Positions 2,459-64,000 of a stretch of DNA of 64,000 nt are shown here, one piece after another. Source of the stretch: Escherichia phage vB_EcoM-Pr103Blw. The position numbers and the translations under genes were made by a program. Every line of letters begins with the position of its first letter. Position 1 is the first letter of the stretch. The stretch is from sequence record MW481326.1. One strand, written 5' to 3'. Under the pieces are notes generated by a model. That model saw only the letters and a list, made by a program, of their open reading frames with translations, made no database searches and was not told the DNA's origin.

Positions 2459-2473
2459 TAGAGGTAAATTGGA

Positions 2474-2920
2474 ATGGCTATGTATCAGCAATATTCCCCT
2501 AAAGACGTTGTGTGTAGCTGGAATGGTATTGCCATTGAAGGCTTTGCCCCAGACTCATTCTTACGTCTACAGAGAACATCACCACTTGTAACACCAGTTG
2601 TAGGTGCAGGTGGTCAAGTTGCTCTGACAAGAAATGCAGACAAGACAGGTACTATTGAGATTGAGCTAATGCAGACTTCTCTCTCTAACCAGATGCTTTC
2701 TGCAATTCAAGCTAAACAAGACAATATGGAACTTGAAGAAGATATCTCTTCTAACTTCGTAATCTACGACCCATCAGGCTCTGTTCTGGCAACTGGTATT
2801 AATGCTTGGTTGCAGGAATTACCACAGATTGAACTTGGTCGTGACCAGAACTCTAAGACTTGGATTTTTGGTTGTGAGAAGCTAGACTACACTTCTACAA
2901 TTCCAGCGTCAAGTGTTTAA
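2474..2920 (+). CDS. putative tail tube protein
   Basis: 148 aa directly after putative sheath, followed by strong terminator as expected for abundant tube gene. Confidence 0.5.
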   Translation: MAMYQQYSPKDVVCSWNGIAIEGFAPDSFLRLQRTSPLVTPVVGAGGQVALTRNADKTGTIEIELMQTSLSNQMLSAIQAKQDNMELEEDISSNFVIYDPSGSVLATGINAWLQELPQIELGRDQNSKTWIFGCEKLDYTSTIPASSV

Positions 2921-2932
2921 TAAATCCTATAA

Positions 2933-2965
2933 GGGGGAGACTTTAAAAGGTCTTCCCCTTTTTTG
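2933..2965 (+). terminator. rho-independent terminator
   Basis: GGGGAGAC-tttaaaag-GTCTTCCCC stem-loop followed by TTTTTTG. Confidence 0.6.
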
Positions 2966-2992
2966 TTTCTTTTAAAGTATTAAGGAATCACA

Positions 2993-3391
2993 ATGAAAAC
3001 AGAATTTAGAGTAATTAATGGTAAGAAAGTAAATATCGTTCTGCTTGGGGCAAGAGATGGTATTAAGATGTCTATGAAGTTGGGTAAAATTGTTGTTCCA
3101 ACTTTTGCACAGATGCTGTCAAGTCTGACTGATAAAGATAAGAAAGAAGCTCCAATGGTTCCATTTAAAGAACTTGTTGAAGCTTGTTTTGACAGAATTG
3201 AAGAAATTAACCTTGAAGAAATGGCTACCTTACTATTTCAAGGGGCAACTGTTGATGACTTCCCACTAAATATTGATACCTATTTCCAAGCAAACTACGG
3301 TGAATTTATTGACTACTTAGCATTTGCGCTGGAGGCAAACTTCGGAAGTTTTTTCGAAGCAAGCATTTTCAAAAGCCTAACTTCTCAGTAA
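2993..3391 (+). CDS. putative tail assembly chaperone
   Basis: 132-aa acidic protein between tube and tape measure genes. Confidence 0.4.
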   Translation: MKTEFRVINGKKVNIVLLGARDGIKMSMKLGKIVVPTFAQMLSSLTDKDKKEAPMVPFKELVEACFDRIEEINLEEMATLLFQGATVDDFPLNIDTYFQANYGEFIDYLAFALEANFGSFFEASIFKSLTSQ

Positions 3392-3633: not shown

Positions 3634-9017
<5,384 letters not shown>

Positions 9018-49060: not shown

Positions 49061-51427
49061 ATGCGCATGGTAAACGACCACGCAGAAGTGATTAAGAGTT
49101 CAACTTCTCTAGAGACGTCTCAAGCACAGATTACAATGACACCTGAAATGTTCAGCCTTTTGAGTTCTGGTGTATACACCTTTAAAGAAAGGGCAGTGAT
49201 TCGTGAACTGTCATGTAACGCAGTAGATGCTCAGAAAGAAGCTGGAAAAGAGAACATCCCGTTCCATGTGCATTTACCTACTCGTTTTGAGCCTTACTTT
49301 GAAGTTCGTGATTTTGGAACCGGATTGACTCATGATAAAGTTATGAGTTTGTACCTAAACTATGGAGCTTCTACGAAGAATGACTCTAATGACTACATTG
49401 GTGCAATGGGTATCGGCTCAAAATCACCATTTGCAATTGCTCAGTCATTCACAGTGTCTAGCTATGTTGATGGTGTTGTTAATAAGTACTCTGTTTACCT
49501 TGAGAATGGTATCCCTCAAGTAACTAAGCTAACTACCAACCCAACGAATGAACCTAATGGTTTAGCTGTACGTGTAGCAGTTGCTGACCATCGTATTTCA
49601 AAGTTCTTTGAAGAGGCTGGTAATGTATACTCATACTTTGCTGTAAAACCAGAAAGTAATATCGAGTATGACGATGTATTAGCAGATATGAACGTCATTG
49701 CCCGTGAAGAAGGTGTTTATGATGCCATGATTCATAAGCAAAGCTGGCGTTCTAGTGGTAACAGGACAGAGTTTAATGTGGTGATGGGTAACATTGCCTA
49801 CCCTGTTAATATGGAAGCATTACTTGGTGATGATTTCTTCAAAGTATTGCCAGAATTTTTCCGTAGGAGCGTAGACCTTGTAAACATCTACATGCCTATT
49901 GGTTCAGTTGCTATTGCAGCTTCTCGTGAAGCATTGCAGATGAATGACACGACAAAAAACGTTATCATTGAGGCTACTAAAAAGATAACTGAAGCAATTA
50001 CAAAGGATGTTATCAAGAAAGTTAATAGCCAACCTACACTCATGGATGCTGCACAGGCTTATGCTGAGTTACGTTTGAACTCACGAGAGATGTTTAATGC
50101 TGTGTGTCCAAAGCTAGAGTGGGGCGGTGTTAAGCTTGATTCTCTGGAAGAAGAATTACTAAACATTCGTCGTGGAATTATCTACGCAGAAGACGGCTCA
50201 GTCATTTACGAACGTGACGGTAAAGGCAATATCAAGGTTGATAGGAACGGGAACAATATCCCTAAAGTAGATTATCTTTATGACCCAGTTGCTTATGTCA
50301 AGTTCAACTCTTTAGAGAGTAAGATTCGTGCAACATCGCTTTCCTACACTCAAGAGGCAAGTATGTTCAATATCTTTGGCGCAATGCGTAAAAGTCAAAT
50401 TGAACAGTTTTTGTTTGTTATAAATGACCGTCGAAATAAAAATGGTACTGAGAAGACTGTAGGACGCAACCAAATCTTGCGTGGTGCATGTCGAGACTAT
50501 GCCAGTGAGTCAAGTCTGTTTCACAGATACAATGGTATTGTCTTTGTATTCTCTACAGAGAAAGAGCTAGACGACTTAATCAATCTGCACAAACTTGATA
50601 AAAGCTTGTTAAAGATTGTGAAGATGTCTGACAAGGAACATCATTATCAGCGTAAAGAAGCTGTAAGAGGTGTTGTAAAACTCTGGAAAGCTGTTCCAGC
50701 AGAAGGTGTAGCTTCATACAAAGAGGTGTCAGAAGACTTAGATACGATTGAAGAACCTCAGCTTTACATTAAGGCAGTCGGTGACACAGTTGATGGTGAA
50801 TGTTTTTGCTCATCTCCAGAAGATGTAGCTAAGTCAGTTGCTAATGTTACAGGTAAGACAGTCTATGTTTTCCGAAAAGCAAATTGGAAAAAGATACCAG
50901 AAGACTGGATTGAAGTAGATGAGAAGCTCTTGAATGACAGCTTAACTGATGTTCACTGGATTAACCATAACAGGTATATGACACGTATCTATATGAATGG
51001 TGTCCTCGACCTTACAAGTAGTTGGATTATTGCCAGAAACTTTACGTTCAATAACAGGAAGATTTCTCGTGGCTATTGTTATTCACGGGATACAAACAAA
51101 ACTATCTTCTTAGAAGGTAATGAAGATGCTGTAGAGGCAATGTTTGGTAAAATCCAATACGTTGCTGCACCGTTTGCATATACTTACACTATTAGTAGGT
51201 TGCAAACTTTGAAAGACTGCCTTGACAATGATACAAAGCTTTACAAGAAAATTAAGAAAGCTGGTGACCGCATGGTCATTAAGGTGACAAACTACCTTTC
51301 AAAAAGAAAACAAGAAAACTTCTTGCTTTCTCATTTAGATTGGAATAAAGTGTCACCCATCGAAGTGAGTAAGTTCTTAGGCTTTGATGTGAAGTGTGTT
51401 CCAGAAGGGACTACAATTTACGATTAA
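49061..51427 (+). CDS. rIIA: rIIA protein (GHKL ATPase-like N-terminus)
   Basis: 788 aa; RAVIRELSCNAVDA, VRDFGTGLT and YIGAMGIGSKSPF parallel T4 rIIA N-terminal segments. Confidence 0.85.
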   Translation: MRMVNDHAEVIKSSTSLETSQAQITMTPEMFSLLSSGVYTFKERAVIRELSCNAVDAQKEAGKENIPFHVHLPTRFEPYFEVRDFGTGLTHDKVMSLYLNYGASTKNDSNDYIGAMGIGSKSPFAIAQSFTVSSYVDGVVNKYSVYLENGIPQVTKLTTNPTNEPNGLAVRVAVADHRISKFFEEAGNVYSYFAVKPESNIEYDDVLADMNVIAREEGVYDAMIHKQSWRSSGNRTEFNVVMGNIAYPVNMEALLGDDFFKVLPEFFRRSVDLVNIYMPIGSVAIAASREALQMNDTTKNVIIEATKKITEAITKDVIKKVNSQPTLMDAAQAYAELRLNSREMFNAVCPKLEWGGVKLDSLEEELLNIRRGIIYAEDGSVIYERDGKGNIKVDRNGNNIPKVDYLYDPVAYVKFNSLESKIRATSLSYTQEASMFNIFGAMRKSQIEQFLFVINDRRNKNGTEKTVGRNQILRGACRDYASESSLFHRYNGIVFVFSTEKELDDLINLHKLDKSLLKIVKMSDKEHHYQRKEAVRGVVKLWKAVPAEGVASYKEVSEDLDTIEEPQLYIKAVGDTVDGECFCSSPEDVAKSVANVTGKTVYVFRKANWKKIPEDWIEVDEKLLNDSLTDVHWINHNRYMTRIYMNGVLDLTSSWIIARNFTFNNRKISRGYCYSRDTNKTIFLEGNEDAVEAMFGKIQYVAAPFAYTYTISRLQTLKDCLDNDTKLYKKIKKAGDRMVIKVTNYLSKRKQENFLLSHLDWNKVSPIEVSKFLGFDVKCVPEGTTIYD

Positions 51428-51432
51428 AGTGT

Positions 51433-51462
51433 TTGACAAGGGGCTTCAAAGCCCCTTAGAAT
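51433..51462 (+). promoter_or_regulatory. sigma70-like promoter with hairpin in spacer
   Basis: TTGACA-18 nt-TAGAAT; spacer holds AAGGGGC-ttcaaa-GCCCCTT stem-loop; upstream of rIIB. Confidence 0.4.
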
Positions 51463-51506
51463 AGCCTTACAAAATGATTTATTAACTAACAAGAGAGAGT
51501 AATAAG

Positions 51507-52616
51507 ATGACTACTAAAACTAAAGCACAGATTGACGCAGAAATTTACGAACTGGTTAAAGAAGGTAAGCTGACTAAAACAGCTATTGCACAGAAGTTCA
51601 ATACTTCAACCCGTTCAGTTGGTCGTGCTGTAGAGCGTCATGAAGCAACCTTAAAAGGTAAGAAGAAGGCGACTTCTACACCAGCTAAGAAGACCCTAAA
51701 GCAAGTTGCTAAGTCAGTTAAAAAGAAAGCTGGCAAACCAGTTGAAAAGGTCGTTAAAGACGCTGTACAGAAAGCTCCAGTAAATAAACTGCATGAAGCT
51801 ATGCAGAAAGATGACAAGATTGAGTACATGATTACTGGTGACTCTGTAATTATGACTTACGGTTCAGAATCTGAAATTGTTGAGTCTACTCATCCGAACT
51901 ATCAAGAGATTGTAGTTCATGTTGTGAAAGGTGAGTTCAAGAAAGCATTTGAACTGATGAACATTCGTAAGTCTATCGAAAACTTCACTCAGGGTGCTAT
52001 CACAATCAAAGGTGACAAGCTCTTCTACGGTGCTGTTGAGATGCGTTCTACTCTGGTTGACCGTATTCTTCACATGATGAAAACTGGTGATAAAGGTTTT
52101 GAACGACTTGTAATGTTCTTCGAAAAACTGATGGAAAACCCATCTAAAGATTCTGTAGAACAACTTTGGGGATTTGTATCTCACCTTGATGTTGAAATTG
52201 ATGAAGAAGGTTACATCATTGGTTGGAAGAAAGTCTCTACTCGTGAAGGCAAGCTGGTTGACTCTCACACCTACAAAGTGCCTAATGATTTGGGTAACAT
52301 TGTAGAGATGCCACGTTGGATGGTTGATAACAACCGTAACGTAACTTGCTCTCAAGGTCTTCATGTTGGCGCTTGGGATTATGTTCGTTGCTTCTCAGGT
52401 GATACCATCCTGAAGGTTCGTGTCCATCCACGAGATGTTGTATCTGTTCCGACTGATTACAACGATATGAAGATGCGTTCCTCTCGTTATGAAGTTGCAG
52501 CAATCGTTGATAATCAACGTAAAGTGCTGAAAGCATGGGATGGTAAGACTGAAGCTTTGCATGTCATCGTTGGCACTGCTGGTGAACTCATCTCTCAACG
52601 TAAACGTGAAATCTAA
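51507..52616 (+). CDS. rIIB: rIIB protein
   Basis: 369 aa; LFYGAVEMRSTLVDRIL, CSQGLHVG and VRVHPRDVVSVPTDYNDMKMR closely parallel T4 rIIB segments. Confidence 0.8.
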   Translation: MTTKTKAQIDAEIYELVKEGKLTKTAIAQKFNTSTRSVGRAVERHEATLKGKKKATSTPAKKTLKQVAKSVKKKAGKPVEKVVKDAVQKAPVNKLHEAMQKDDKIEYMITGDSVIMTYGSESEIVESTHPNYQEIVVHVVKGEFKKAFELMNIRKSIENFTQGAITIKGDKLFYGAVEMRSTLVDRILHMMKTGDKGFERLVMFFEKLMENPSKDSVEQLWGFVSHLDVEIDEEGYIIGWKKVSTREGKLVDSHTYKVPNDLGNIVEMPRWMVDNNRNVTCSQGLHVGAWDYVRCFSGDTILKVRVHPRDVVSVPTDYNDMKMRSSRYEVAAIVDNQRKVLKAWDGKTEALHVIVGTAGELISQRKREI

Positions 52617-56271: not shown

Positions 56272-57057
56272 ATGGGTATTGTAAAAATCATCAATGGTGA
56301 TATCTTTGCTGCATTTGATAAAGGTAAGTTTGACATCATTGGTCATGGTTGTAACTGCATGAACCTAATGGGTGCAGGTATCGCTGACAAGATTTCTAAA
56401 CTTTACCCAAAAGCATATGAGACCGATACAGAAGTTTATCTATATGCAGGTGGTATAGGACACAAACCCTGTGAAAATTTACTGGGTAATTTCTCTGTAG
56501 CACGTTTAAAACAAGGTCGTATAGCCAACCTTTACACTCAGCTTAAGACTGGTAAAGATGCCCGATACAGTGCTTTAGAGTTATCTTTGAAACAGCTTAA
56601 CAGATACTGTGAAGTTAATCAGTTGAAGAAAGTTGGTTTACCTATGATTGGCGCAGGTATCGGTGGGTTGGACCCTCAAGCCGTCACAGTTATCATCAAT
56701 CAGGTGATGAAGAGTGTAGATGTTTATCTATATGTCTATGAAGGAGAGATGTACCACAAGTTACGCTCAGGTTGGAAGAACTACTGTGAACCAGAATACT
56801 TTGCAGGTGTAGTTGTGTTCACGGATAATGCAGTTACCCTCTTCAGACGAAGAAAAGGTAAGATACATCAAAGTAACCCTCCGGTTGAGAAGATGTCTCT
56901 AAGTAACGCTCTAGTTACCCACCTGTCGAAGAGCAATCACAGGATAGCCGTAACATTTGGCAGTGATGCAGATACATATATTTATGCAAGAACTGATGAG
57001 GATATTGAGACGGTCTTCTCTTCACCGGAAGTTACCTTCTTAGACGCAAAGAACTAA
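56272..57057 (+). CDS. macro-domain protein (ADP-ribose binding/processing) with C-terminal extension
   Basis: N-terminus NGDIFAAFDKGKFDIIGHGCNCMNLMGAGIA and later LPMIGAGIGGL match macro-domain Gly-rich ADP-ribose-binding loops. Confidence 0.6.
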   Translation: MGIVKIINGDIFAAFDKGKFDIIGHGCNCMNLMGAGIADKISKLYPKAYETDTEVYLYAGGIGHKPCENLLGNFSVARLKQGRIANLYTQLKTGKDARYSALELSLKQLNRYCEVNQLKKVGLPMIGAGIGGLDPQAVTVIINQVMKSVDVYLYVYEGEMYHKLRSGWKNYCEPEYFAGVVVFTDNAVTLFRRRKGKIHQSNPPVEKMSLSNALVTHLSKSNHRIAVTFGSDADTYIYARTDEDIETVFSSPEVTFLDAKN

Positions 57058-57131
57058 GAAACTCTGTATAATATTCACAATAGACTAAGCCTTTCTTATC
57101 TGGTAAATTTTTCAGGTAAGGAGGGCTTTTT

Positions 57132-57320
57132 CATTTCAGGATTGTGCAGGTATATATCTATAGAGAAATCTGTAGAGAGAATTTTGAACTCCAAAGAGAA
57201 AATTCATTTTCAAACTGTGCAGGTAATCTCCAAAGAGCTTTTTCATTTTCAAAACGTGCAGACCCCGCTCAGGTCGGGCAAGAAAAATCATTTTAGAATT
57301 GTGCAGGTAGGTTTTTATAG
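57132..57320. repeat. array of four direct repeats (consensus TTCATTTTCAAAAcTGTGCAGGTA)
   Basis: Copies near 57132, 57205, 57243, 57288; non-coding (track ORFs on both strands here only translate the repeat). Confidence 0.6.
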
Positions 57321-57330
57321 AGAGCCAGAC

Positions 57331-57365
57331 CAACCCCTCTCCCCCTCTTACTCCCCCTCTCCCCA
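57331..57365 (-). other. G-quadruplex-capable tract on - strand (C-rich on + strand)
   Basis: + strand CCCCTCTCCCCCTCTTACTCCCCCTCTCCCC gives four G-runs of >=4 with short loops on - strand; unusual in AT-rich genome. Confidence 0.45.
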
Positions 57366-57484
57366 AAAGTCAAGAGAAAAATTTGTAGCGGATTGAAAAA
57401 TAATTCTTGATTTGTGTTCTGTTTTGTGGTAGTCGTGTGCGCACGTTTCATTACAGTTTTCCAAAAATATTTTTAAAATTTTTC

Positions 57485-57578
57485 TTGACTCTTTGAACGG
57501 GGTTATCTAGTATTTGCATCAACGGGGAGGGAATGACCTTTCCCACTAAGTAAAGTCCTTAAATTAGGAGATTCAAAA
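57485..57578 (+). promoter_or_regulatory. early promoter plus conserved leader cassette, copy 1
   Basis: TTGACT-17 nt-TAGTAT, then leader TCAACGGGGAGGGAATGACCTTTCCCACTAAGTAAAGTCCTTAAATTAGGAGATTCAAAA-ATG. Confidence 0.65.
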
Positions 57579-57959
57579 ATGGCATATCGTGCACCTAAAT
57601 TCATCAACAAAGACAACTTTCGCAACGCACTGGAGAAGTCACTTGATGAGAATTTTAAAGGTAACGTTATTGTTGTTCACTCGTTCAATTTTAAGTATGA
57701 TATCAACGGGAATAAAATCAACCATTACACGGCAACCATGTTAGATGGCACTCTTTCAAGTGAAAAAACAATTCTACATGCACTTGCTGGGCGTGGAAAA
57801 AACCTGATAAGGTGCGATAAGAGACGTTATCAGGGTGGCGCATATGGTTACGATGACGCTATTTATCATCTTGAAAATATGGGCTATCAAGTAGAAAAAG
57901 CTGGAGTATCACAAATCATCGGGAGCGATGGTTATGTAACAATCTTCAAAATTAACTGA
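57579..57959 (+). CDS. early protein, unknown function
   Basis: 126 aa; starts right after conserved leader/RBS. Confidence 0.6.
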   Translation: MAYRAPKFINKDNFRNALEKSLDENFKGNVIVVHSFNFKYDINGNKINHYTATMLDGTLSSEKTILHALAGRGKNLIRCDKRRYQGGAYGYDDAIYHLENMGYQVEKAGVSQIIGSDGYVTIFKIN

Positions 57960-58048
57960 TAAAGTACTTTACAAGGGGCTTATAGTTCGATAAAGTAAGC
58001 CCCAGATAAAGAGCTTTACCACTCAATCCTAAATTGGAGAACTAAAAA
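57960..58048 (+). promoter_or_regulatory. intercistronic palindrome-hairpin element, copy 1
   Basis: Palindrome TAAAGTACTTTA, hairpin GGGGCTTA...TAAGCCCC, then AGATAAAGAGCTTTACCACTCAATCCTAAATTGGAGA...ATG. Confidence 0.55.
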
Positions 58049-58339
58049 ATGGCTATTATCAAAAACGTTGTAATTACTGCAAAGACTCGTGATGACGCTC
58101 GCGTTATGGCTAAAAAGTTAGGCGGGAAAGTGGTTGACAACGGAAAACAATCTGCTGTAAGGTGGGGCGTGAAGGCTGATAAGCAGTTGAGGTTAAAAAA
58201 TTCACCGATAAACCTTTTTACATGTGTAAACACTATCGGGAAGACAAATGTATACACGAAAAAGGCATACATTAGACGCGTAGCATTAACATCCCCCATT
58301 CGTACAATGAGAAGTTATGCAAAGCTGAAAATTAACTGA
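58049..58339 (+). CDS. early protein, unknown function (basic)
   Basis: 96 aa; follows element copy 1; ends ...KLKIN like preceding gene (...IFKIN). Confidence 0.6.
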   Translation: MAIIKNVVITAKTRDDARVMAKKLGGKVVDNGKQSAVRWGVKADKQLRLKNSPINLFTCVNTIGKTNVYTKKAYIRRVALTSPIRTMRSYAKLKIN

Positions 58340-58427
58340 TAAAGTACTTTACAGGGGGCTTAAAAGTTGATATCTTAAGCCCCAGATAAAGAGCTTTACC
58401 ACTAAATCCTAAACTGGAGATTCAAAA
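58340..58427 (+). promoter_or_regulatory. intercistronic palindrome-hairpin element, copy 2
   Basis: TAAAGTACTTTA + GGGGGCTTAA...TTAAGCCCC + conserved RBS leader. Confidence 0.55.
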
Positions 58428-58724
58428 ATGAAACTATCAAATAAAGTCCGTGAAAATCTAAGCAAGTTACTTAATAAAATTGATTTCATTGAAACATCAA
58501 GGAATAGTCATGATGTTATGGAATGGTTACACGGAAAAATCAAAGGCCGTCGTGTAGTGATTTGCTTATGGAATAGTTGCAGGGAATATAAAAAACCTGT
58601 ATTGCAAGTCAATATCTATGATGATACTTTTAAAAGCCCTGTAAAGTCTAAAAGCGATTTATTAGAATCCTATGAGATAACTGTAAATGGCAAAGTATCA
58701 CGTAAAGAGGAAACACCATGCTAA
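58428..58724 (+). CDS. early protein, unknown function
   Basis: 98 aa. Confidence 0.6.
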   Translation: MKLSNKVRENLSKLLNKIDFIETSRNSHDVMEWLHGKIKGRRVVICLWNSCREYKKPVLQVNIYDDTFKSPVKSKSDLLESYEITVNGKVSRKEETPC

Positions 58725-59050
58725 TGACTGGTATCACTGCAATCATTGCCATTTTCGCGCTATATAAGGCATATAAAGCCTATAATCTAGCAAATAAGGC
58801 AATCACACAGCAGGTTAGCAATAACCTTGTAGAGAGCTTTCTAGGGCGTTTAAGTGATGAGCAAATAAAGCGGCTAGAGATGAGCTTCAGATATAAAGCG
58901 AAAACCTATCAAATAAGTGACATCTTCAAAGATGATTTTCAGTTAGTTGATGATTATAATTCTCTGATAAATGCTTTAAATATCAGTGACTTAAAAGACT
59001 ACTACGCTGTAATTGTTCAAGAATTGAGCAAACGAAAACAAAACTGTTGA
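58718..59050 (+). CDS. early membrane-anchored protein, unknown function
   Basis: 110 aa; N-terminal hydrophobic segment (LMTGITAIIAIFALY). Confidence 0.5.
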   Translation: MLMTGITAIIAIFALYKAYKAYNLANKAITQQVSNNLVESFLGRLSDEQIKRLEMSFRYKAKTYQISDIFKDDFQLVDDYNSLINALNISDLKDYYAVIVQELSKRKQNC

Positions 59051-59138
59051 CACTGGTTTTTAGATAGATTAAATTACACATCAACGGGGAGGGAATGACC
59101 TTCCCCACTAAATAAAGTCCTAAACTGGAGATTCTAAA
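59047..59138 (+). promoter_or_regulatory. early promoter plus conserved leader cassette, copy 2
   Basis: TTGACA-17 nt-TAAATT then leader with GGGGAGGGAATGACCTTCCCC hairpin and AGGAGA... wait-free RBS GGAGATTCTAAA-ATG. Confidence 0.65.
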
Positions 59139-59411
59139 ATGTATACTACTAACAACGGTCGCACTTTAAATGTCACACTACGTCACTATGTAGATGGTGT
59201 CATGCACTTTGAAGACTTACAAGCTGAACAACATATCTTAGATTGGCAAGTCGCAGGACTCCAAAAAACTGCTACGGGATACGGTAAAAAAATTCCAACC
59301 AGTTGGAAAGTACACTACGAAGGACGTTTGCGCAGAATTTATCAGGATGTGCAAAGCAATAGTGCATCGAGTTACATTATAGTAAAAGGTAAAAAACTGC
59401 ATTTAGTGTAA
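59139..59411 (+). CDS. early protein, unknown function
   Basis: 90 aa. Confidence 0.6.
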   Translation: MYTTNNGRTLNVTLRHYVDGVMHFEDLQAEQHILDWQVAGLQKTATGYGKKIPTSWKVHYEGRLRRIYQDVQSNSASSYIIVKGKKLHLV

Positions 59412-59495
59412 AGTACTTTACAGGGGGTTATCAAGCTGATAAGATAACCCCAGATAAAGAGCTTTACCACTCAATCCTAAATTGGAGATTCTAAA
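59409..59495 (+). promoter_or_regulatory. intercistronic palindrome-hairpin element, copy 3
   Basis: TAAAGTACTTTA overlapping stop codon; hairpin GGGGTTATC...GATAACCCC (stem co-varies relative to other copies). Confidence 0.55.
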
Positions 59496-59900
59496 ATGGC
59501 TATTAATAACCGTGAATTATCAATCTTAAAAGCACGTTTGACCGTCAACCGGATTAATGTTCTGACATCATCAGCGCCTGATGAGACATTGCACAACATT
59601 ATCGGAAAGATTCAAAGTGTTATCTTAGACGTTGAAAACGTAAAAAACTCATTGGCTGACGTTGCAGCAGGTATCACGCTAGACGGTGCGCAATATGAAA
59701 TGATTGATATGTTAGGCAAATCAAAGGTTATGAATAAAGAGTTAGACCTAAAAATGTTTCGATTTGCCGTGAAAGTATGGCTATCTGTCGAGTATGATGC
59801 TAATTTTGCAATCGCTGATTTCTTCGCCACTTGGTTACAACGTAATTTGACAAATCACGATTTTCGTGGCATCTGCGATGCAATTTATGCAGAACTCTAA
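59496..59900 (+). CDS. early protein, unknown function
   Basis: 134 aa. Confidence 0.6.
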   Translation: MAINNRELSILKARLTVNRINVLTSSAPDETLHNIIGKIQSVILDVENVKNSLADVAAGITLDGAQYEMIDMLGKSKVMNKELDLKMFRFAVKVWLSVEYDANFAIADFFATWLQRNLTNHDFRGICDAIYAEL

Positions 59901-59909
59901 AAAATTTTG

Positions 59910-60003
59910 TTGACACTGGTTTTTAGATAGATTAAATTACACATCAACGGGGAGGGAATGACCTTCCCCACTAAATAAAGTCCTTAAACTAGGAGATTCA
60001 AAA
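59910..60003 (+). promoter_or_regulatory. early promoter plus conserved leader cassette, copy 3
   Basis: About 95 bp nearly identical to copy 2 (TTGACACTGGTTTTTAGATAGATTAAATTACACATCAACGGGG...). Confidence 0.65.
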
Positions 60004-60207
60004 ATGGCTATTATTAACGGTTTAACCATTGAAACTACACACATCAAAGATATCAAAGTTGGTGATATAGTCCTTTCCCACGGCGTAGAAAAAACTGTCA
60101 CTGCAAAGGATATCAAAGAGGATTCTTTCATGGGTAGGACTCTCTTCGGTGATTCTTATTGCTTAGGTTATCTTGCAGTTTTAAAAGTTGTCAAAATTAA
60201 CAAATAA
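60004..60207 (+). CDS. early protein, unknown function
   Basis: 67 aa. Confidence 0.55.
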   Translation: MAIINGLTIETTHIKDIKVGDIVLSHGVEKTVTAKDIKEDSFMGRTLFGDSYCLGYLAVLKVVKINK

Positions 60208-60291
60208 AGTACTTTACAAGGGGCTTATAAGTCTGTAAAGTAAGCCCCAGATAAAGAGCTTTACACAATCCTTAAACTAGGAGATTCAAAA
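60205..60291 (+). promoter_or_regulatory. intercistronic palindrome-hairpin element, copy 4
   Basis: TAAAGTACTTTA overlapping stop; hairpin GGGGCTTAT...TAAGCCCC; conserved RBS leader. Confidence 0.55.
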
Positions 60292-60834
60292 ATGAAATGC
60301 TATCACGGAACTACTCAAGAAAATTTCCTCAACCTGATTAATAACGGTGATAAACCATCAGGCGCATGGAATTGTTCGGATATGGACGGCAATTTTTACG
60401 TGTATCCAGAAAATAAAATCTATGGCGACGATGAGGAAGAAATAGCATCAGAAGGTATCCAACAAGCTCTAGGAAATGCCACTATCACCGCAGCTTTCCA
60501 GATGAAAACCCAAAATATTGTTATCTTAGAACTCGATATTCCAGAGGATGAGCTGAATGATGATTATTCTTGTGATAATATGTCGAGTGTGGCAAGTTTT
60601 ACAGAGTACTTTGATGTAAATTGGATTAAAAAGGTCTATACAACAGAGTTTAACGCTATGTATTCACCTTTTTGTCTTCCTTCATTGGATAACCCAAATT
60701 TAAACTATCTTGATGAGTCTCTGGAGCTTCTTGCTAAAAGTGTTCAACAGTCGGACAGTATTCAGGTTTTTTGTGACATCATGGATACACTGACAGGGAA
60801 CATTGCAGAAGAGGATTTAAAGAGCTTTTTCTAA
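60292..60834 (+). CDS. early protein, unknown function (acidic)
   Basis: 180 aa. Confidence 0.6.
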   Translation: MKCYHGTTQENFLNLINNGDKPSGAWNCSDMDGNFYVYPENKIYGDDEEEIASEGIQQALGNATITAAFQMKTQNIVILELDIPEDELNDDYSCDNMSSVASFTEYFDVNWIKKVYTTEFNAMYSPFCLPSLDNPNLNYLDESLELLAKSVQQSDSIQVFCDIMDTLTGNIAEEDLKSFF

Positions 60835-60866
60835 AAACCTATGCAATCACCTTATAAACACTAATC

Positions 60867-60887
60867 AGCCCCTTGTAGGGGCTTTTA
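60867..60887 (+). terminator. terminator-like hairpin
   Basis: AGCCCC-ttgta-GGGGCT followed by TTTTA. Confidence 0.45.
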
Positions 60888-60900
60888 GGGGGCTTAAATC

Positions 60901-61134
60901 ATGCTTACAACCATTTATCTCATCCTTTCCATTTGTAACGGCCATTCATGCGATTTTAAAGGGCTTGAGGAGTTCACAGGAAGTAAAGAAAATGCCATTC
61001 AAGTTTGTCAGATAGCAAGGCAAGACTATCCCGCCAGTGATGACATACAATGCTACTTTAAGACAGAAGATGAAGAAGGCATTTATTTTGATAGTGTTGA
61101 CGGTCAATATGAAATTATCATTGAAAAAGACTAG
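60901..61134 (+). CDS. early protein, unknown function
   Basis: 77 aa; GGGGGC SD. Confidence 0.5.
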   Translation: MLTTIYLILSICNGHSCDFKGLEEFTGSKENAIQVCQIARQDYPASDDIQCYFKTEDEEGIYFDSVDGQYEIIIEKD

Positions 61135-61225
61135 ACAAGCCTGATAAAAGCTTGTAGAGTGTCAATCAACGGGGAGGGAATAACCTTCCCCACTAAGTAA
61201 AGTCCTTAAACTAGGAGATTCTAAA
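61132..61225 (+). promoter_or_regulatory. early promoter plus conserved leader cassette, copy 4
   Basis: TAGACA-17 nt-TAGAGT overlapping upstream stop, then leader with GGGGAGGGAATAACCTTCCCC hairpin. Confidence 0.55.
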
Positions 61226-61567
61226 ATGGCTTATGTAACTGTAATTACCGATAAAGAGAATTCATCTTGGTCAACTCAGGTTAGTGATAAGATGTCACCT
61301 ATGCAGTGTCTAAAATACTTTGAGCAGTGGAACAAAGGCGAGGATGTAAGCCCCTTTCAGGTAATGCAAATCATCCATACAGATAACGAAGGGAATAAAA
61401 CGACACTGAATAGTGAGTACTATGCAAGCCGTTTTGAAACGAGAAGTAAAACAATGAAGCTTTTACGTGAATCCGGCTATTCTCACATTGCCGCGCTAAT
61501 ATGGGATGACCTGCTGAAAAGCCAGCGTATCAGCTATGTAAAACCTGAAAAAATATTCATCAGTTAA
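61226..61567 (+). CDS. early protein, unknown function
   Basis: 113 aa. Confidence 0.6.
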   Translation: MAYVTVITDKENSSWSTQVSDKMSPMQCLKYFEQWNKGEDVSPFQVMQIIHTDNEGNKTTLNSEYYASRFETRSKTMKLLRESGYSHIAALIWDDLLKSQRISYVKPEKIFIS

Positions 61568-61599
61568 TCAATAACTTATAAAAAACTTTAAAAAATTAC

Positions 61600-61628
61600 T
61601 TGACGATACCCCTTGACAATAGTACATT
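61600..61628 (+). promoter_or_regulatory. sigma70-like promoter
   Basis: TTGACG-17 nt-TACATT in 220-bp gap. Confidence 0.4.
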
Positions 61629-61696
61629 TGTTCGAGGGGGTTTATCTAAAAGGGATTCACTTAAAAGATTCTTTATAGATAAGCTTAAAAAATTGC

Positions 61697-61789
61697 TTGC
61701 AATCAACTATCAAAACAAGTAAATTACTAATCAACGGGGAGGCGATAACCTTCCCCACTAAATAAAGTCCTTAAACTAGGAGATTCAAA
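61697..61789 (+). promoter_or_regulatory. early promoter plus conserved leader cassette, copy 5
   Basis: TTGCAA-17 nt-TAAATT then leader (hairpin GGGGAGGCGATAACCTTCCCC). Confidence 0.6.
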
Positions 61790-62320
61790 ATGAACAAGTT
61801 CAAAGCTATCAACTATATTCGTTCAAATGCTGTAATGTCTAAGCCTGTTAAAGATACCTACGAATTTCGCTGCAACGGTGTACACTTCGCAACCATCACT
61901 AAATCAGAAAACGGGGCTTATTACGTTCATCGTCGTAATGTTTCGACCGTTGTAGTCTCTCACTTTATGCAAGCTGTAGCAGAATTATTACCGTTATTCT
62001 TAGAGATTTACTTAGATGAGTGTAAAAACGTTCGCAACCATGTTAAAAACCTTTTAAATGGTTATAAGATGGCTTATGAACGTTCTATCAAGAATCTTAA
62101 CAAGTTCTATAAAGCCCCTGAAAATACTGTATCAATAGCTTATGATGTAAGCGGTGAAATGGCCAACCTCTCTAATGTAGAACAAATTAGCCTTTATGAT
62201 TTACGTCCTAGTGGCTACTCTAAGACTCTCGGTGAAGGTTTATCCTTCAATATCAAGAACTTAGAAAAAACTTTAAAAGATATTGAAAAAGATATTGACG
62301 AGACAATCAAAAGTCTGTAA
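61790..62320 (+). CDS. early protein, unknown function
   Basis: 176 aa. Confidence 0.6.
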   Translation: MNKFKAINYIRSNAVMSKPVKDTYEFRCNGVHFATITKSENGAYYVHRRNVSTVVVSHFMQAVAELLPLFLEIYLDECKNVRNHVKNLLNGYKMAYERSIKNLNKFYKAPENTVSIAYDVSGEMANLSNVEQISLYDLRPSGYSKTLGEGLSFNIKNLEKTLKDIEKDIDETIKSL

Positions 62321-62382
62321 ATTGTCAATCAACGGGGGATAACCTCCCCCACTAAACAAAATCCTAAACTGGAGTTATCAAG
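62295..62382 (+). promoter_or_regulatory. early promoter plus conserved leader cassette, copy 6
   Basis: TTGACG-17 nt-TAAATT (-10 overlaps stop codon); shortened hairpin GGGGGATAACCTCCCCC. Confidence 0.6.
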
Positions 62383-62646
62383 ATGGAAAACGTAGAATTA
62401 ACCACACTTTTACAAATTGCAACCGACAAAGAAGATGTAGCATTATTCCACCGTATCGAAAGTGATTTGTTCAATGGTGAAATCATTAAAGAATCTTACG
62501 AAGTTGTCGGATTCAAAGATGGTAAAGCATTTGGCTTTTTTGACCTCGACAAAAGCAAAGCGGTTACAATGTACGATGTTCTATCTTGTGAAATTCTGAC
62601 AAAATACAACGAAAAAAGGCTTGCAACCTACGCCAATATGCAGTAA
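62383..62646 (+). CDS. early protein, unknown function
   Basis: 87 aa. Confidence 0.6.
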   Translation: MENVELTTLLQIATDKEDVALFHRIESDLFNGEIIKESYEVVGFKDGKAFGFFDLDKSKAVTMYDVLSCEILTKYNEKRLATYANMQ

Positions 62647-62713
62647 ATTACTAATCAACGGGGAGGGAATGACCTTCCCACTAAACAAAGTCCTAAACTG
62701 GAGAATCTAAATT
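62621..62713 (+). promoter_or_regulatory. early promoter plus conserved leader cassette, copy 7
   Basis: TTGCAA-17 nt-TAAATT then leader with GGGGAGGGAATGACCTTCCC hairpin. Confidence 0.6.
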
Positions 62714-62962
62714 ATGTCAACTATCCGCGTAACTGTTAATGCTTATGGCTGCCACAAACTTGATGCAAAATTCGATATCGGTGGAACAGATAACACCTTT
62801 GACCTTATCAAAATGCTGATTCAGCAGGTGATACCAGATTATAACCCTACTGATGACTTCTGGAAAGATGCCGTAAAAGAAGCCATAAACGAGGAATCTC
62901 ACTACCATTATTGGGGTGACTTGATTGTCTCTCTATACTACAGCAAACAAGGCTACAACTAA
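62714..62962 (+). CDS. early protein, unknown function
   Basis: 82 aa. Confidence 0.6.
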   Translation: MSTIRVTVNAYGCHKLDAKFDIGGTDNTFDLIKMLIQQVIPDYNPTDDFWKDAVKEAINEESHYHYWGDLIVSLYYSKQGYN

Positions 62963-63000
62963 TCGACGCAACGGGGCTAAATAGCCCCAGATACCTTTAC

Positions 63001-63024
63001 AGCCCCTTAAATGGGGCTTTTTTA
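63001..63024 (+). terminator. rho-independent terminator closing the early gene array
   Basis: AGCCCC-ttaaat-GGGGCT followed by TTTTTT; preceded by a second hairpin GGGGCT-aaat-AGCCCC at 62974-62988. Confidence 0.6.
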
Positions 63025-63039
63025 CGTCTATCGAATCCT

Positions 63040-64000
63040 TATACAATCCCTTTCCTTTCTAGAATCTTATCAGACCTTAAAAAGCAATAACTCTATAGTC
63101 TACTCTATAACCTCTTATCAAATCAACTTAAATATAAGCCCATAACCCGAAAGGGAAGGGCAACCACTAAAATGCTCTATAAAGCTCTATAACAGCCTTA
63201 TCAACCTAACTTAAGCAATCATATTAACCCACTCTAAAAAGCCCTTTATAGAGCTTCCTAGAGCCTTAAAAGAATCTTATAAGGGTACAAGCTTATAAGC
63301 TGGCTAGTATCTTGTGAATACCTAAACAACCCCTTGATAGTCACTAAAAAGTATGTTATAGGGGCTATAGAGTTACTTCAAAGTTACGTAAAAAGAGCTA
63401 TAAAGTTACGTAAATGCTAGCCCCCTTAACATTTTCTTAACAATTTCTTAACAAACCCTACATAGTTATGCTTGTTAGAGACTTGTTAGCCCCTTGTTAA
63501 ATCTCTGTTAAGACCACGTAAAAGCCTTGTAAGAGTCTTTGACATATCCTTAAAAGCCTCTGTAAAGCCCTATAAAGAGCTATCCATACAGTTGAGGGGT
63601 AAATACTAGGGAGAGCCTTAAAAGAGCTTACAAGGGGCTGTATAGGGCTTTTAAGAGGTATGTTTAAGAGTTCACTAAGAAAGGAAAGGGAACGATAAGA
63701 AAAGAGATAGTGACCATGTTAATAGCTTGTTAAAAAGATTAAACACTTGTTAGAAACTTGTTAATTATCTTAATAAAATAACTCTTTAAAATTAACTTGT
63801 TAGCTCTTATTAGTCATCTGTTAAGACTCTGTAAAGACTATTCAGCACTTGTTAGAAAACTGTTACATCCTTGTTAGTTCTGTTAAGAGACTGTTAAGAC
63901 CTTTGAAGAGTTGTTAAGAGCTTGTGAGAACTGTTAAGAGATTGTTAAGGATATTTTAAAATTTTGCAAAGTACTTGTAAGGGAGTTGTTAAGGGCTACC
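63040..64000. repeat. non-coding region dense in short degenerate repeats (CTATARAG and yTGTTARr families)
   Basis: No ORF of 60 aa or more; more than 20 copies of TGTTAAG/TGTTAGA-like heptamers, from about 63840 spaced every 10-12 bp; also TTACGTAA x2 and CTATAAAG/CTATAGAG copies. Confidence 0.6.

What the first reader, a model, noticed from the sequence alone, without database searches (positions are those of the whole stretch)
57485..62713. Seven copies of a conserved promoter-plus-60-nt-leader cassette driving an array of small early genes
Each cassette has a sigma70-like -35/-10 (TTGACA or TTGCAA, 17-nt spacer, TAAATT or TAGTAT) and then an almost invariant transcribed leader: TCAACGGGGAGGGAATGACCTTCCCCACTAAATAAAGTCCTTAAACTAGGAGATTCAAAA-ATG. 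The leader holds an 8-bp stem-loop (GGGGAGGG/CCTTCCCC) and a fixed Shine-Dalgarno context. Promoter hexamers vary between copies while the leader is preserved, which suggests the leader itself is functional: an RNA processing or stability element, or the binding site of a translational or transcriptional regulator acting on the whole early set. The 13 downstream genes are all small, unknown and early-type, so this is where host-takeover and anti-defence factors would be expected.
Basis: seen in the sequence. Interest (0 to 1): 0.6.

Follow-up and report, generated by a model that had tools for sequence, protein, structure and literature searches.

The report
Repeated early promoter-hairpin cassettes in phage
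A Felix O1-like phage places nearly the same small control unit (host-type promoter, RNA hairpin, standard ribosome-binding site) in front of 11 of 13 small early genes; this matches the "PeSL" cassettes already known from T4-like phages, which also act as recombination points for swapping genes.

Summary
The window comes from a Felixounavirus, and the region corresponds to Felix O1 genes 14-23. Seven copies of a sigma70-type promoter plus a ~60-nt leader lie at the stated places; none is expected by chance. They serve a block of 13 small genes with no known family.

Four copies lie directly after stop codons. Each is a 20-bp interrupted hairpin with strong covariation support, and each contains its own promoter: TTTACA, 17 nt, TAnnnT. 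Both types end in the same ribosome-binding region (CCTAAACTGGAGAWTCTAAAATG).

Stop codon, A-rich tract, promoter, G-run/C-run hairpin and Shine-Dalgarno/ATG together match the published definition of T4-type PeSL cassettes. As with PeSLs, gene gains and losses between related phages have their break-points inside the cassettes. Felix O1 carries a clean chimera of two window cassettes.

Between genera the leader diverges about as fast as the genes. Only the start-site motif, the hairpin as a structure and the ribosome-binding region persist. Near-invariance within one genome therefore reflects repeated, recombining copies more than a specific regulator site.

Verdict: a new member of a known kind, in a phage subfamily where I found no description of it. 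Interest is moderate. What the hairpins do remains untested.

The parts
57485..57581 (+). Type A cassette 1: TTGACT (57485-57490), 17 nt, TAGTAT (57508-57513), TCAACGG at 57519, hairpin 57524-57544, GGAG, ATG 57579
   Evidence: 58.4 bits
57958..58051 (+). Type B cassette 1: stop codons TGA/TAA inside the lower stem, TTTACA (57968), 17 nt, TAAAGT (ends 57996), 20-bp interrupted hairpin 57960-58019, shared ribosome-binding region, ATG 58049
   Evidence: dG -25.1, z -4.3; 84 bits
58338..58430 (+). Type B cassette 2: TTTACA (58348), 17 nt, TG-n-TATCTT (ends 58376), long hairpin, ATG 58428
   Evidence: 86.7 bits
59047..59141 (+). Type A cassette 2: TTGACA (overlaps the stop TGA of the 110-aa ORF), 17 nt, TAAATT, TCAACGG at 59081, hairpin 59086-59106, ATG 59139
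   Evidence: 72.6 bits
59407..59498 (+). Type B cassette 3: TTTACA (59417), 17 nt, TG-n-TAAGAT (ends 59445); upper stem GGGGTTATC/GATAACCCC differs from the other window copies by paired changes on both arms; ATG 59496
   Evidence: dG -28.8, z -4.9; 76.2 bits
59910..60006 (+). Type A cassette 3: TTGACA, 17 nt, TAAATT, TCAACGG at 59944, hairpin 59949-59969, ATG 60004.
   Evidence: 65.2 bits
60203..60294 (+). Type B cassette 4: TTTACA (60213), 17 nt, TAAAGT (ends 60241), long hairpin, ATG 60292
   Evidence: 83.3 bits
61132..61228 (+). Type A cassette 4: TAGACA (contains the stop TAG of the 77-aa ORF), 17 nt, TAGAGT, TCAACGG at 61166, hairpin 61171-61191, ATG 61226
   Evidence: 65.3 bits
61697..61792 (+). 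Type A cassette 5: TTGCAA, 17 nt, TAAATT, TCAACGG at 61731, hairpin 61736-61756 (7 bp), ATG 61790
   Evidence: 53.8 bits
62295..62385 (+). Type A cassette 6: TTGACG lies inside the 176-aa ORF, 17 nt, TAAATT contains its stop TAA; TCAACGG at 62329; short hairpin 62334-62350 (6 bp); ATG 62383
   Evidence: 49.6 bits
62621..62716 (+). Type A cassette 7: TTGCAA lies inside the 87-aa ORF, 17 nt, TAAATT contains its stop TAA; TCAACGG at 62655; hairpin 62660-62679 (7 bp); ATG 62714
   Evidence: 60.2 bits
57579..62962 (+). Array of 13 small ORFs: 57579-57959, 58049-58339, 58428-58724, 58718-59050, 59139-59411, 59496-59900, 60004-60207, 60292-60834, 60901-61134, 61226-61567, 61790-62320, 62383-62646, 62714-62962. 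Eleven follow a cassette. 58718 overlaps the end of the preceding ORF (possible translational coupling). 60901 follows an internal terminator.
   Evidence: no Pfam match and PHROGs of unknown function
57087..57133 (+). Intrinsic terminator upstream of the block (equals Felix O1 t13)
   Evidence: PMC3185647 Table 2
60867..60887 (+). Internal intrinsic terminator (AGCCCCTTGTAGGGGCT + TTTT) after the 180-aa ORF
   Evidence: one search lists the same palindrome on the - strand
61600..61640 (+). Extra promoter-like site TTGACG, 17 nt, TACATT, overlapping a CCCC...GGGGG hairpin (61609-61640) in the 120-nt spacer before cassette A5
62973..63024 (+). End of the block: promoter-less hairpin GGGGCTAAATAGCCCC (62973-62988; it has the CAACGGGG start of type A and the CCCCAGATA end of type B), then the intrinsic terminator 63001-63018 plus T-run (equals Felix O1 t23)
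   Evidence: PMC3185647 Table 2

Best explanation
The block is an array of composite regulatory cassettes of the PeSL kind (promoter-early stem-loop). Each cassette sits between the stop codon of one small gene and the start codon of the next.

**Composition of a cassette**
- an A/T-rich tract;
- a host sigma70 promoter;
- a G-run/loop/C-run hairpin that forms in the sense-strand transcript;
- a standard ribosome-binding region, CCTAAACTGGAG-N8-9-ATG.

**The two layouts**
- Type A has the hairpin just after the start site. The predicted start is the A of TCA, which gives 5'-AAC followed by the hairpin.
- Type B has the hairpin wrapped around the promoter. The predicted start is the A of AGATAAAG. 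Only read-through transcripts from upstream would carry the full 20-bp hairpin.

**Proposed function**
- Almost every small gene gets its own early transcription and uniform translation signals as soon as host RNA polymerase sees the injected DNA.
- The hairpins separate neighbouring transcription units. They may do this as attenuators, processing sites or decay barriers; which one is not known.
- Because ~25-60 nt are shared by all copies, the cassettes are preferred sites of homologous recombination, through which genes of this variable block are gained, lost, duplicated and moved.

**Shown versus inferred**
- Shown here: the anatomy, conservation of the promoter geometry, the sense-strand hairpins, confinement of the cassettes to the variable block, and break-points inside cassettes.
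- Inferred: promoter activity, the start sites, and what the hairpins do.
For: **Promoters**
- Type A, 116 distinct copies from several phages: -10 T1/A2/T6 in 116/116; -35 starts TTG in at least 105/116; 17-nt spacer; 5 nt to TCA; 77% A+T upstream.
- Type B, 90-102 distinct copies: TTTACA in 90/90; T1 87/90, A2 87/90 and T6 87/90 at a 17-nt spacing, with hexamer positions 3-5 free. T1 and A2 lie in an otherwise variable loop, so the hairpin does not explain their conservation. TG is present at -15/-14 in 56/102. An A lies 7-8 nt after the -10.

**Hairpins**
- Type B: 96.1% of cells paired; 5 pairs changed on both sides; 64 cells; covariation score 0.117 against at most 0.022 when partners are slid; 0/500 shuffles reach it.
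- Type B scores 60-88 bits on the sense strand and 27-42 bits on the antisense strand. U.G wobble pairs are frequent, which favours the sense RNA.
- The Erwinia phage copies carry GGTG/CACC in place of GGGG/CCCC.
- Type A: 90.6% paired; one pair covaries (AU 75, CG 12, GC 2, UG 2); a G.U pair is present in 72/103 sequences.

**Distribution**
- All 7 type A and 4 type B copies of the 64-kb window lie within 57.5-62.7 kb.

**Recombination**
- Gene order across 8 phages shows a fixed backbone with variable genes between cassettes. The same gene follows type A in one phage and type B in another, and one gene occupies different positions.
- The Felix O1 F-I junction is a chimera. Its left half equals the window cassette at 59910. 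Its right half equals the one at 61132. The crossover lies inside the shared leader, and ~1.2 kb with three genes is removed.
- Michonne has a tandem gene duplicate with a cassette-to-cassette junction.

**Match to PeSLs**
- The definition was taken from PMC2839356 and PMC4122927. Real phi1 PeSLs were read directly.
Against: - No transcription start, promoter activity or RNA end has been measured for any Felix O1-like phage that I could find.
- Neither hairpin type is followed by a T-run, so they do not look like canonical intrinsic terminators. The terminator role shown for one phi1 PeSL cannot simply be transferred.
- Covariation in the type A hairpin is thin. One pair covaries, and a G-run facing a C-run still pairs at 80.8% when slid by one column.
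- Sequence homology to phi1 PeSLs is not established: nhmmer E-values are 0.05-0.2 and cover the promoter part only.
- Leader identity between non-orthologous copies in one genome (0.82) only slightly exceeds that between orthologous copies of different genera (0.79). Concerted evolution is therefore suggested, not proven.
Confidence: 0.7

Rival explanations
1. One reading: the leader is the specific target of a trans-acting regulator (a transcriptional operator, translational repressor or antiterminator) that controls the whole early set together.
For: - The ribosome-binding region is nearly identical in all 11 cassettes and is found nowhere else in the 64-kb window.
- GGAG is the Shine-Dalgarno core in 11/13 block genes against 19/78 other genes.
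- A small CC..GG stem that covers the Shine-Dalgarno sequence recurs, with a paired T/A insertion in one variant and CCTT..AAGG or CCTC..GAGG in the Erwinia phage.
Against: - No candidate regulator was found. T4 RegB, which cuts GGAG in early mRNAs, has no homolog by tblastn in the window or the related loci.
- Rfam finds nothing.
- The central part of the leader is replaced between genera, and the hairpin sequence changes.
- Overall leader conservation is no higher than that of the ORFs.
- Hairpin-less promoters exist in the same block.
- The small Shine-Dalgarno stem has only 2-4 bp, and its outer pair fails in 30/103 sequences.
Confidence: 0.15
2. The type A hairpin is a 5'-terminal stabiliser. 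It sits about 3 nt from the 5' end and would shield early mRNAs from 5'-end-dependent decay (RppH, RNase E), as the ompA 5' stem-loop does. This is compatible with the main explanation.
For: - The fixed geometry (-10, 5 nt, TCA) puts the best pyrimidine-purine start at the A of TCA. The RNA would then begin AAC followed by a 6-8-bp G/C stem.
- The G.U pair in 72/103 copies favours the sense RNA.
- That a hairpin must lie within a few nt of the 5' end to stabilise an mRNA is my own knowledge (Emory, Bouvet and Belasco 1992).
Against: - Type B transcripts would start after their hairpin and so lack one, yet they serve equivalent genes.
- Some type A-like promoters have no hairpin.
- The start site is only predicted.
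Confidence: 0.35
3. The type B element is an RNase III-type processing site between cistrons, like the T7 early sites R0.3-R1.3. It would cut read-through transcripts into single-gene mRNAs and leave a protective 3' hairpin on the upstream one. This is compatible with the main explanation.
For: - It has 11-bp and 9-bp stems around a 3x3 internal loop. It sits exactly between a stop codon and the next ribosome-binding region, and covariation supports both stems.
- The 3' side of the internal loop (CCCC/AGA) coincides with the predicted promoter start. Processing and initiation would then give the same 5' end.
Against: - The comparison with T7 sites rests on my memory of their shape; no cleavage data exist.
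- The invariant T1/A2 of the embedded -10 in the loop and the TG at -15/-14 are explained by a promoter, not by RNase III.
- Type A cassettes have only a 6-8-bp stem, too short for RNase III.
Confidence: 0.25
4. The hairpins are transcription terminators or attenuators that insulate each gene, as reported for the stem-loop of one phi1 PeSL.
For: - In vivo, the PeSL211/210 stem-loop lowered lacZ expression about as much as rrnB T1 (PMC2839356).
- The hairpins here sit in the same place and are likewise a G-run followed by a C-run.
Against: - No T-run follows either type; the sequence after the stem is ACTAAAT or AGATAAAG.
- True terminators with T-runs exist separately at 57087, 60867 and 63001.
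Confidence: 0.3
5. The repeats are only leftovers of recent duplications and have no function of their own.
For: Copies within one genome are very similar, and the block clearly rearranges.
Against: - The architecture persists across Felixounavirus, Mooglevirus, a 90,743-bp contig that I take to be SUSP1/Suspvirus, and in part Kolesnikvirus.
- Promoter positions stay invariant while stems change by compensatory substitutions. This is purifying selection, not decay.
Confidence: 0.05

Closest known systems
PeSL (promoter-early stem-loop) cassettes of T4-type phages RB49/phi1, T4/PST and KVP40/nt-1 (Arbiol et al. 2010, PMC2839356; Comeau et al. 2014, PMC4122927)
   Same: - The order of parts is the same: stop codon in an A/T-rich tract, sigma70-like promoter, G-run/loop/C-run stem-loop, Shine-Dalgarno sequence and ATG. 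In PeSLs the stem-loop lies between the promoter boxes, over the -10, or just downstream of it.
- There are many copies, concentrated in a variable block of small orphan genes.
- Insertions and deletions between relatives end in the cassettes.
- The type B -35 (TTTACA) fits the T4/PST PeSL consensus TTTACW-N17-TAYWAT.
- The element at window 51433 has the phi1 layout, with the hairpin in the spacer.
- The motif GGAGAWTCWAAA..ATG is confined to the cassettes in both phages.
   Different: - The host phage belongs to another lineage: Ounavirinae, ~87 kb, with no T4-type transcription factors reported (PMC3185647).
- Sequence homology is not shown (nhmmer E 0.05-0.2).
- Two fixed layouts alternate here.
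- Type B has an additional lower stem, giving a 20-bp interrupted hairpin that pairs the -35 region with +3 to +15.
- The transcribed leader is longer (25-60 nt) and carries an invariant TCAACGG start motif.
- Promoter activity, terminator activity and mini-circles have not been tested here.
[quoted passage not shown]
   Same: Five or six near-identical TTGACA-N17-TAgAAT promoter repeats lie between small genes of a putative early region, in myoviruses once grouped with Felix O1. Their conservation extends beyond the hexamers.
   Different: That paper describes no hairpin, no shared leader or ribosome-binding region, and no link to gene shuffling. I did not compare the sequences.
RNase III processing sites between the early genes of phage T7 (own knowledge)
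   Same: They are interrupted ~20-bp hairpins between cistrons of an early, host-polymerase-made transcript. The type B shape resembles them.
   Different: T7 sites contain no promoter. T7 early genes share three promoters at the genome end rather than having one per gene. Cleavage is untested here.
The 57-bp and 39-bp direct repeats listed in the Felix O1 genome paper (PMC3185647)
   Same: They are the same sequences. The 57-bp repeat is a type B cassette and the 39-bp repeat is the promoter half of type A.
   Different: They were reported only as direct repeats. These promoters were not among those the authors listed, and no structure, function or recombination role was proposed.

Membership tests
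PeSL cassettes (Arbiol 2010; Comeau 2014) | sigma70-like early promoter with an A/T-rich tract upstream of the -35 | tested here: met
   By sequence only. Type A: (T1/A2/T6 in 116/116; 77% A+T upstream). Type B: (TTTACA 90/90; TAnnnT 87/90, rising to 90/90 if a 1-nt spacer shift is allowed; 74% A+T upstream).
PeSL cassettes (Arbiol 2010; Comeau 2014) | Stable stem-loop, typically a G-run then a C-run, within or next to the promoter (between the boxes, over a box, or just downstream of the -10) | tested here: met
   Type A has it downstream of the -10. Type B has it between the boxes and over the -10. Definition.
PeSL cassettes (Arbiol 2010; Comeau 2014) | Bounded by the upstream gene's stop codon and the downstream gene's Shine-Dalgarno sequence and start codon | tested here: met
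   Stop codons lie in the type B lower stem, or in the -35 or -10 of type A.
PeSL cassettes (Arbiol 2010; Comeau 2014) | Many copies, concentrated in a variable region in front of small genes of unknown function | tested here: met
   11 of 11 strong model hits in the 64-kb window lie within 57.5-62.7 kb. The genes have no known family. Gene content varies between phages.
PeSL cassettes (Arbiol 2010; Comeau 2014) | Insertions, deletions and replacements between related phages have their ends in the cassettes | tested here: met
   Chimeric Felix O1 junction; gene-order map; Michonne duplication with a cassette-to-cassette junction. Only a few junctions were examined base by base.
PeSL cassettes (Arbiol 2010; Comeau 2014) | Promoter activity and terminator/attenuator activity shown experimentally | not testable with these tools
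   Needs reporter fusions. The canonical terminator signature (T-run) is absent.
PeSL cassettes (Arbiol 2010; Comeau 2014) | Circular recombination products (mini-circles) between neighbouring cassettes | not testable with these tools
   Needs outward-facing PCR on infected cells or virion DNA.
PeSL cassettes (Arbiol 2010; Comeau 2014) | Sequence relatedness to the T4-type cassettes (not required by the published definition) | tested here: inconclusive
   A phi1 PeSL profile picks the type A promoters as its best hits in 170 kb, but at E 0.05-0.2. A shared ribosome-binding motif was noted.
Canonical intrinsic (rho-independent) terminator | G+C-rich hairpin followed directly by a T-run | tested here: not met
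   On the + strand one search lists only 57087 and 63001. No type A or type B hairpin qualifies.
RNase III processing site (T7 early type) | About 20 bp of double-stranded RNA, often with an internal loop, between cistrons | tested here: met
   Type B only: 11 + 9 bp around a 3x3 loop, supported by covariation.
RNase III processing site (T7 early type) | Cleavage by RNase III | not testable with these tools
   Needs an rnc mutant or an in vitro assay.
5'-terminal mRNA-stabilising stem-loop (ompA type) | Stem-loop within a few nucleotides of the true 5' end | tested here: inconclusive
   The predicted start leaves 3 unpaired nt, but no start site has been mapped.
Any curated RNA family (Rfam 15) | Match to a covariance model | tested here: not met
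   Only a chance miRNA hit, 22 bits against a 104-bit cut-off, E 0.57.

The most novel reading that the evidence does not exclude
The type B element serves twice. As DNA it is a sigma70 promoter. As RNA in read-through transcripts it is a ~20-bp processing hairpin whose cut site coincides with the promoter's own start. Initiation and processing would then give the same single-gene mRNA. In addition, the early ribosome-binding motif GGAGAWTCWAAA..ATG, which appears only in these cassettes and in the PeSLs of the unrelated coliphage phi1, would mark a cassette that has moved between phage families, or a shared site for a host or phage factor that times early translation.
Probability: 0.15. Interest if true: 0.6.

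Novelty: new member of a known kind. Interest (0 to 1): 0.38.

Why it matters
**Unanswered question in the Felix O1 paper.** The authors asked how transcription proceeds in this block. The answer proposed here is that 11 of its 13 genes have their own host-type promoter.

**Reach of the PeSL design.** If confirmed, the design extends from T4-type phages to an unrelated myovirus subfamily that is widely used for Salmonella and E. coli typing, biocontrol and therapy. Such cassettes would then look like a general way for virulent phages to plug in, express and exchange small accessory genes.

**Practical uses**
- The cassettes mark the boundaries of the exchangeable gene set that differs between otherwise near-identical therapeutic phages.
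- They offer natural insertion sites and ready-made early expression signals for phage engineering.
- They correct database annotations that call the hairpins minus-strand terminators.

Tried and rejected
- **Rfam, permissive threshold:** nothing relevant.
- **Canonical terminator scan:** the cassette hairpins do not qualify.
- **Protein families for all 13 genes:** no function, so the anti-defence idea could not be tested.
- **Literature on transcriptomics or mapped starts in Felix O1-like phages:** none found. The only data are the RT-PCR time classes in PMC3185647.
- **Any mention of PeSLs together with Felix:** none.
- **RegB-type endonuclease idea** (uniform GGAG Shine-Dalgarno cores as cleavage targets): GGAG is enriched. 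T4-type RegB, confirmed as PF10715, has no tblastn match in the window or the related loci. The idea is left as unsupported.
- **Homology of the cassettes to phi1 PeSLs (nhmmer):** marginal E-values; not claimed.
- **Concerted-evolution test on leader identities:** the difference is too small to be decisive.
- **Shine-Dalgarno-covering mini-stem:** suggestive variants, but it has only 2-4 bp and is partly mis-registered in the model alignment; not claimed.
- **DNA operator reading:** rejected as the main reading. The stems change sequence while keeping pairing, and they contain G.U pairs that would be mismatches on the other strand.

Full report
**Where the window comes from.** Megablast of 57000-63000 finds 258 phage records, nearly all Felix O1-like myoviruses (Felixounavirus), with best identities of 88-92%. 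The region lies between the Felix O1 terminators t13 (window 57087-57128) and t23 (63001-63018). It therefore corresponds to Felix O1 genes 14-23. It follows a macro-domain "phosphatase" gene (56272-57057).

**Checking the observation.** Seven + strand copies of the described unit exist. TCAACGG starts at 57519, 59081, 59944, 61166, 61731, 62329 and 62655.
- Six match the 28-nt core with at most 3 mismatches, where shuffles give none. The seventh is a shortened variant.
- Each has a -35, a 17-nt spacer, a -10 and exactly 5 nt before TCA. The pairs are TTGACT/TAGTAT, TTGACA/TAAATT (twice), TAGACA/TAGAGT, TTGCAA/TAAATT (twice) and TTGACG/TAAATT.
- The hairpin folds as described, with 6-8 bp including a G.U pair.
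- Thirteen small + strand ORFs follow. None has a Pfam match, and all belong to PHROGs of unknown function.
- A covariance model of the leader finds only these seven strong hits in the 64-kb window.

Four further intergenic units of a second type lie at 57958-58051, 58338-58430, 59407-59498 and 60203-60294.
- Each begins at the stop codon of the upstream gene.
- Each folds into a long interrupted hairpin: an 11-bp lower stem, a 3x3 internal loop, a 9-bp upper stem and a 10-11-nt loop. The free energy is -25 to -29 kcal/mol, with z-scores of -3.5 to -4.9.
- Each ends in the same ribosome-binding region as type A (CCTAAAYTGGAG-N8-9-ATG).

Eleven of the 13 genes therefore follow a cassette. One ORF (58718) overlaps the end of the preceding ORF. 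One (60901) follows an internal terminator at 60867-60887.

**Related phages.** I collected the homologous block from these sources:
- Felix O1, KhF1 and phiWec177;
- the Mooglevirus phages Moogle, Michonne and Silverhawkium;
- an Erwinia Kolesnikvirus;
- 40 IMG/VR fragments.

Every gene of the block in the Felixounavirus and Mooglevirus phages uses the same ribosome-binding region.

*Type A promoters.* In 116 distinct copies the geometry is conserved. The -10 has T1, A2 and T6 in 116/116, the -35 starts TTG in at least 105/116, both spacings are fixed, and the 14 nt upstream are 77% A+T. The best pyrimidine-purine start is the A of TCA. The RNA would then begin AAC followed by the hairpin.

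*Type A hairpin.* Its sequence is not fixed. Variants include GGGGAGGG..CCTTCCCC, GGGGCAAGCAAGCCCC, GGGAAGCAATCCC and GGGGAGGGAAACTTCCCC. On 103 distinct sequences, 90.6% of cells pair. Only one pair covaries (AU 75, CG 12, GC 2, UG 2). A G.U pair present in 72 sequences favours the sense strand. Support for this hairpin is moderate.

*Type B hairpin.* Support is strong. On 99 distinct sequences, 96.1% of cells pair and five pairs change on both sides, in 64 cells. The covariation score is 0.117, against at most 0.022 for slid partners, and no shuffle out of 500 reaches it. Sense-strand hits score 60-88 bits and antisense hits 27-42 bits. The Erwinia phage copies carry GGTG/CACC in place of GGGG/CCCC. 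U.G pairs are common.

**Type B is also a promoter.**
- In 90 distinct copies TTTACA is invariant.
- At a 17-nt spacing the hexamer has T1 in 87/90, A2 in 87/90 and T6 in 87/90, while positions 3-5 vary freely. The three exceptions are 1-nt spacer shifts.
- T1 and A2 lie in the otherwise variable loop, so the hairpin does not explain them.
- TG is present at -15/-14 in 56 of 102 copies.
- The A of AGATAAAG lies 7-8 nt after the hexamer, the usual start distance.

The block therefore probably has 11 cassette promoters rather than seven, plus a promoter-like site at 61600.

**Why the promoter halves vary and the leader does not.** In four type A copies the stop codon of the upstream ORF lies inside the -35 or the -10, at 59050, 61134, 62320 and 62646. 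In two of them the -35 lies within coding sequence. The promoter half is therefore tied to the upstream gene. The leader is free, non-coding and shared.

Between genera the leader is not especially conserved. The 62 nt upstream of orthologous genes are 55-81% identical, against 59-80% for the ORFs. Only the last 24 nt do somewhat better, at 71-92%. Three things persist:
- the start motif TCAACGG;
- a G-run/C-run hairpin;
- the ribosome-binding region.

A few promoters in the block have no hairpin.

**Recombination.** A gene-order map of eight phages shows a fixed backbone with variable genes inserted between cassettes. Four genes follow type A in one phage and type B in another. One gene occupies different positions.

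The Felix O1 junction between the 134-aa and 113-aa genes is a clean chimera. Its left half matches the window cassette at 59910. Its right half matches the cassette at 61132. The crossover lies inside the shared leader, and three genes (~1.2 kb) are absent. Michonne carries a tandem duplicate of an 85-aa gene whose junction joins the ATG of one cassette directly to the CTTTACA of the next.

**Comparison with what is known.** The Felix O1 genome paper listed two of these sequences as 57-bp and 39-bp direct repeats. It did not interpret them, and it stated that how transcription proceeds here is unknown.

The design matches the published definition of PeSL cassettes of T4-type phages (PMC2839356, PMC4122927):
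- a stop codon in an A/T-rich tract;
- a sigma70-like promoter;
- a G-run/loop/C-run stem-loop between the boxes, over a box, or just downstream of the -10;
- a Shine-Dalgarno sequence and ATG;
- about 100 bp in all;
- concentration in variable regions before orphan genes;
- location at the ends of insertions and deletions.

I read real phi1 PeSLs directly. They look like stop-AAAAAGTTG-TTGACA-GGGGATC..GATCCCC-TATAAT-ACACACATACCGAAACGA..AGGAGAATCAAAATG. One further element of exactly this layout lies at window 51423-51470.

The motif GGAGAWTCWAAA..ATG is confined to the cassettes in both phages: 9 hits in the window, all in the block, and 11 hits in 20 kb of phi1, all in PeSLs. A phi1 PeSL profile picks the type A promoters as its best hits, but at E 0.05-0.2. 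Common descent is therefore not shown. I found no paper linking PeSLs with Felix-like phages. PAK_P1-like Pseudomonas phages have a simpler version, 41-nt repeated early promoters.

**What the hairpins do.** This is the weak point.
- They are not canonical terminators, because no T-run follows.
- The phi1 authors showed strong attenuation for one PeSL stem-loop.
- The type A hairpin would lie about 3 nt from the 5' end, which suits a 5' stabiliser.
- The type B hairpin has the size and shape of an RNase III site, and its internal loop coincides with the predicted start.

These roles do not exclude each other, and none is tested. No Rfam family matches, no RegB homolog is found, and the middle of the leader is replaced between genera.

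**Verdict.** The feature is real and well defined. It is best read as an array of PeSL-type promoter/hairpin/ribosome-binding cassettes that give 11 of the 13 small early genes their own expression signals and serve as recombination points. It is a new member of a known kind, apparently undescribed for Ounavirinae. Interest is moderate.

Noticed in passing
window 57127-57309 (and L006 10822-10994): Four copies of a ~23-nt motif, TTTTTCATTTTCAAAnnGTGCA(GGTA), lie directly after terminator t13 and upstream of the first early promoter. None is expected by chance. The same motif occurs four times at the same place in an Erwinia Kolesnikvirus, so it is conserved across genera. A C-rich tract follows at 57334-57364. 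The repeats could be iterons or regulator sites; their function is unknown.
   Followed up: partly
window 63020-64000 (and L006 17700-18668): About 1 kb of non-coding DNA lies after the block, where the + and - strand gene clusters converge. It is packed with short repeats of CTTGTTAA/CTGTTAAG. The Erwinia phage has a comparable repeat-rich region (TGTTAAGA, CTTCTAA).
   Followed up: no
window 51423-51470: Another promoter/hairpin unit lies outside the block: stop codon TAA, then TTGACA, GGGGCTTCAAAGCCCC in the spacer, then TAGAAT. This is the same layout as the phi1 PeSLs. It sits ahead of the gene starting at 51508.
   Followed up: partly
window 61568-61696: An unusually long spacer holds a promoter-like site, TTGACG, 17 nt, TACATT (61600-61628), which overlaps a CCCC..GGGGG hairpin (61609-61640). 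It also holds the block GGGATTCACTTAAAAGATTCTTTATAGATAAGC (61652-61685), which is also present in Moogle, Michonne and Silverhawkium. In the latter two a 45-46-aa ORF follows.
   Followed up: no
window cassettes and L048 (phi1, NC_009821.1 108000-128000): The ribosome-binding motif GGAG-A(A/T)TC-(A/T)AAA..ATG occurs only in the early cassettes of this phage (9 hits, none elsewhere in 64 kb) and only in the PeSLs of the unrelated coliphage phi1 (11 hits in 20 kb). The Erwinia phage leader CCATCGAAACAA also resembles phi1 CCATCGAAACGA. Whether this reflects convergence or transfer is undecided.
   Followed up: partly
L004 (KhF1, KT184313.1) 3060-3080, 3925-3945, 5483-5503, 6642-6662: The GenBank record annotates the type A hairpins as rho-independent terminators on the opposite strand. 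Given the promoter context, this is probably a mis-annotation.
   Followed up: no
L003 (Michonne) 2424-3292: An 85-aa gene is duplicated in tandem. The junction is cassette to cassette: the ATG of one ribosome-binding region is fused directly to the CTTTACA of the next cassette, leaving a cassette with no gene.
   Followed up: partly
window 57579-62962 versus the rest of the window: GGAG is the Shine-Dalgarno core for 11 of 13 block genes but for only 19 of 78 other predicted genes. No homolog of the GGAG-cutting T4 RegB nuclease was found by tblastn.
   Followed up: yes
window 62973-62988: After the last gene lies a promoter-less hairpin, GGGGCTAAATAGCCCC, which combines the type A start (CAACGGGG) with the type B end (CCCCAGATA). 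It sits just before the true terminator and may be a cassette remnant.
   Followed up: no
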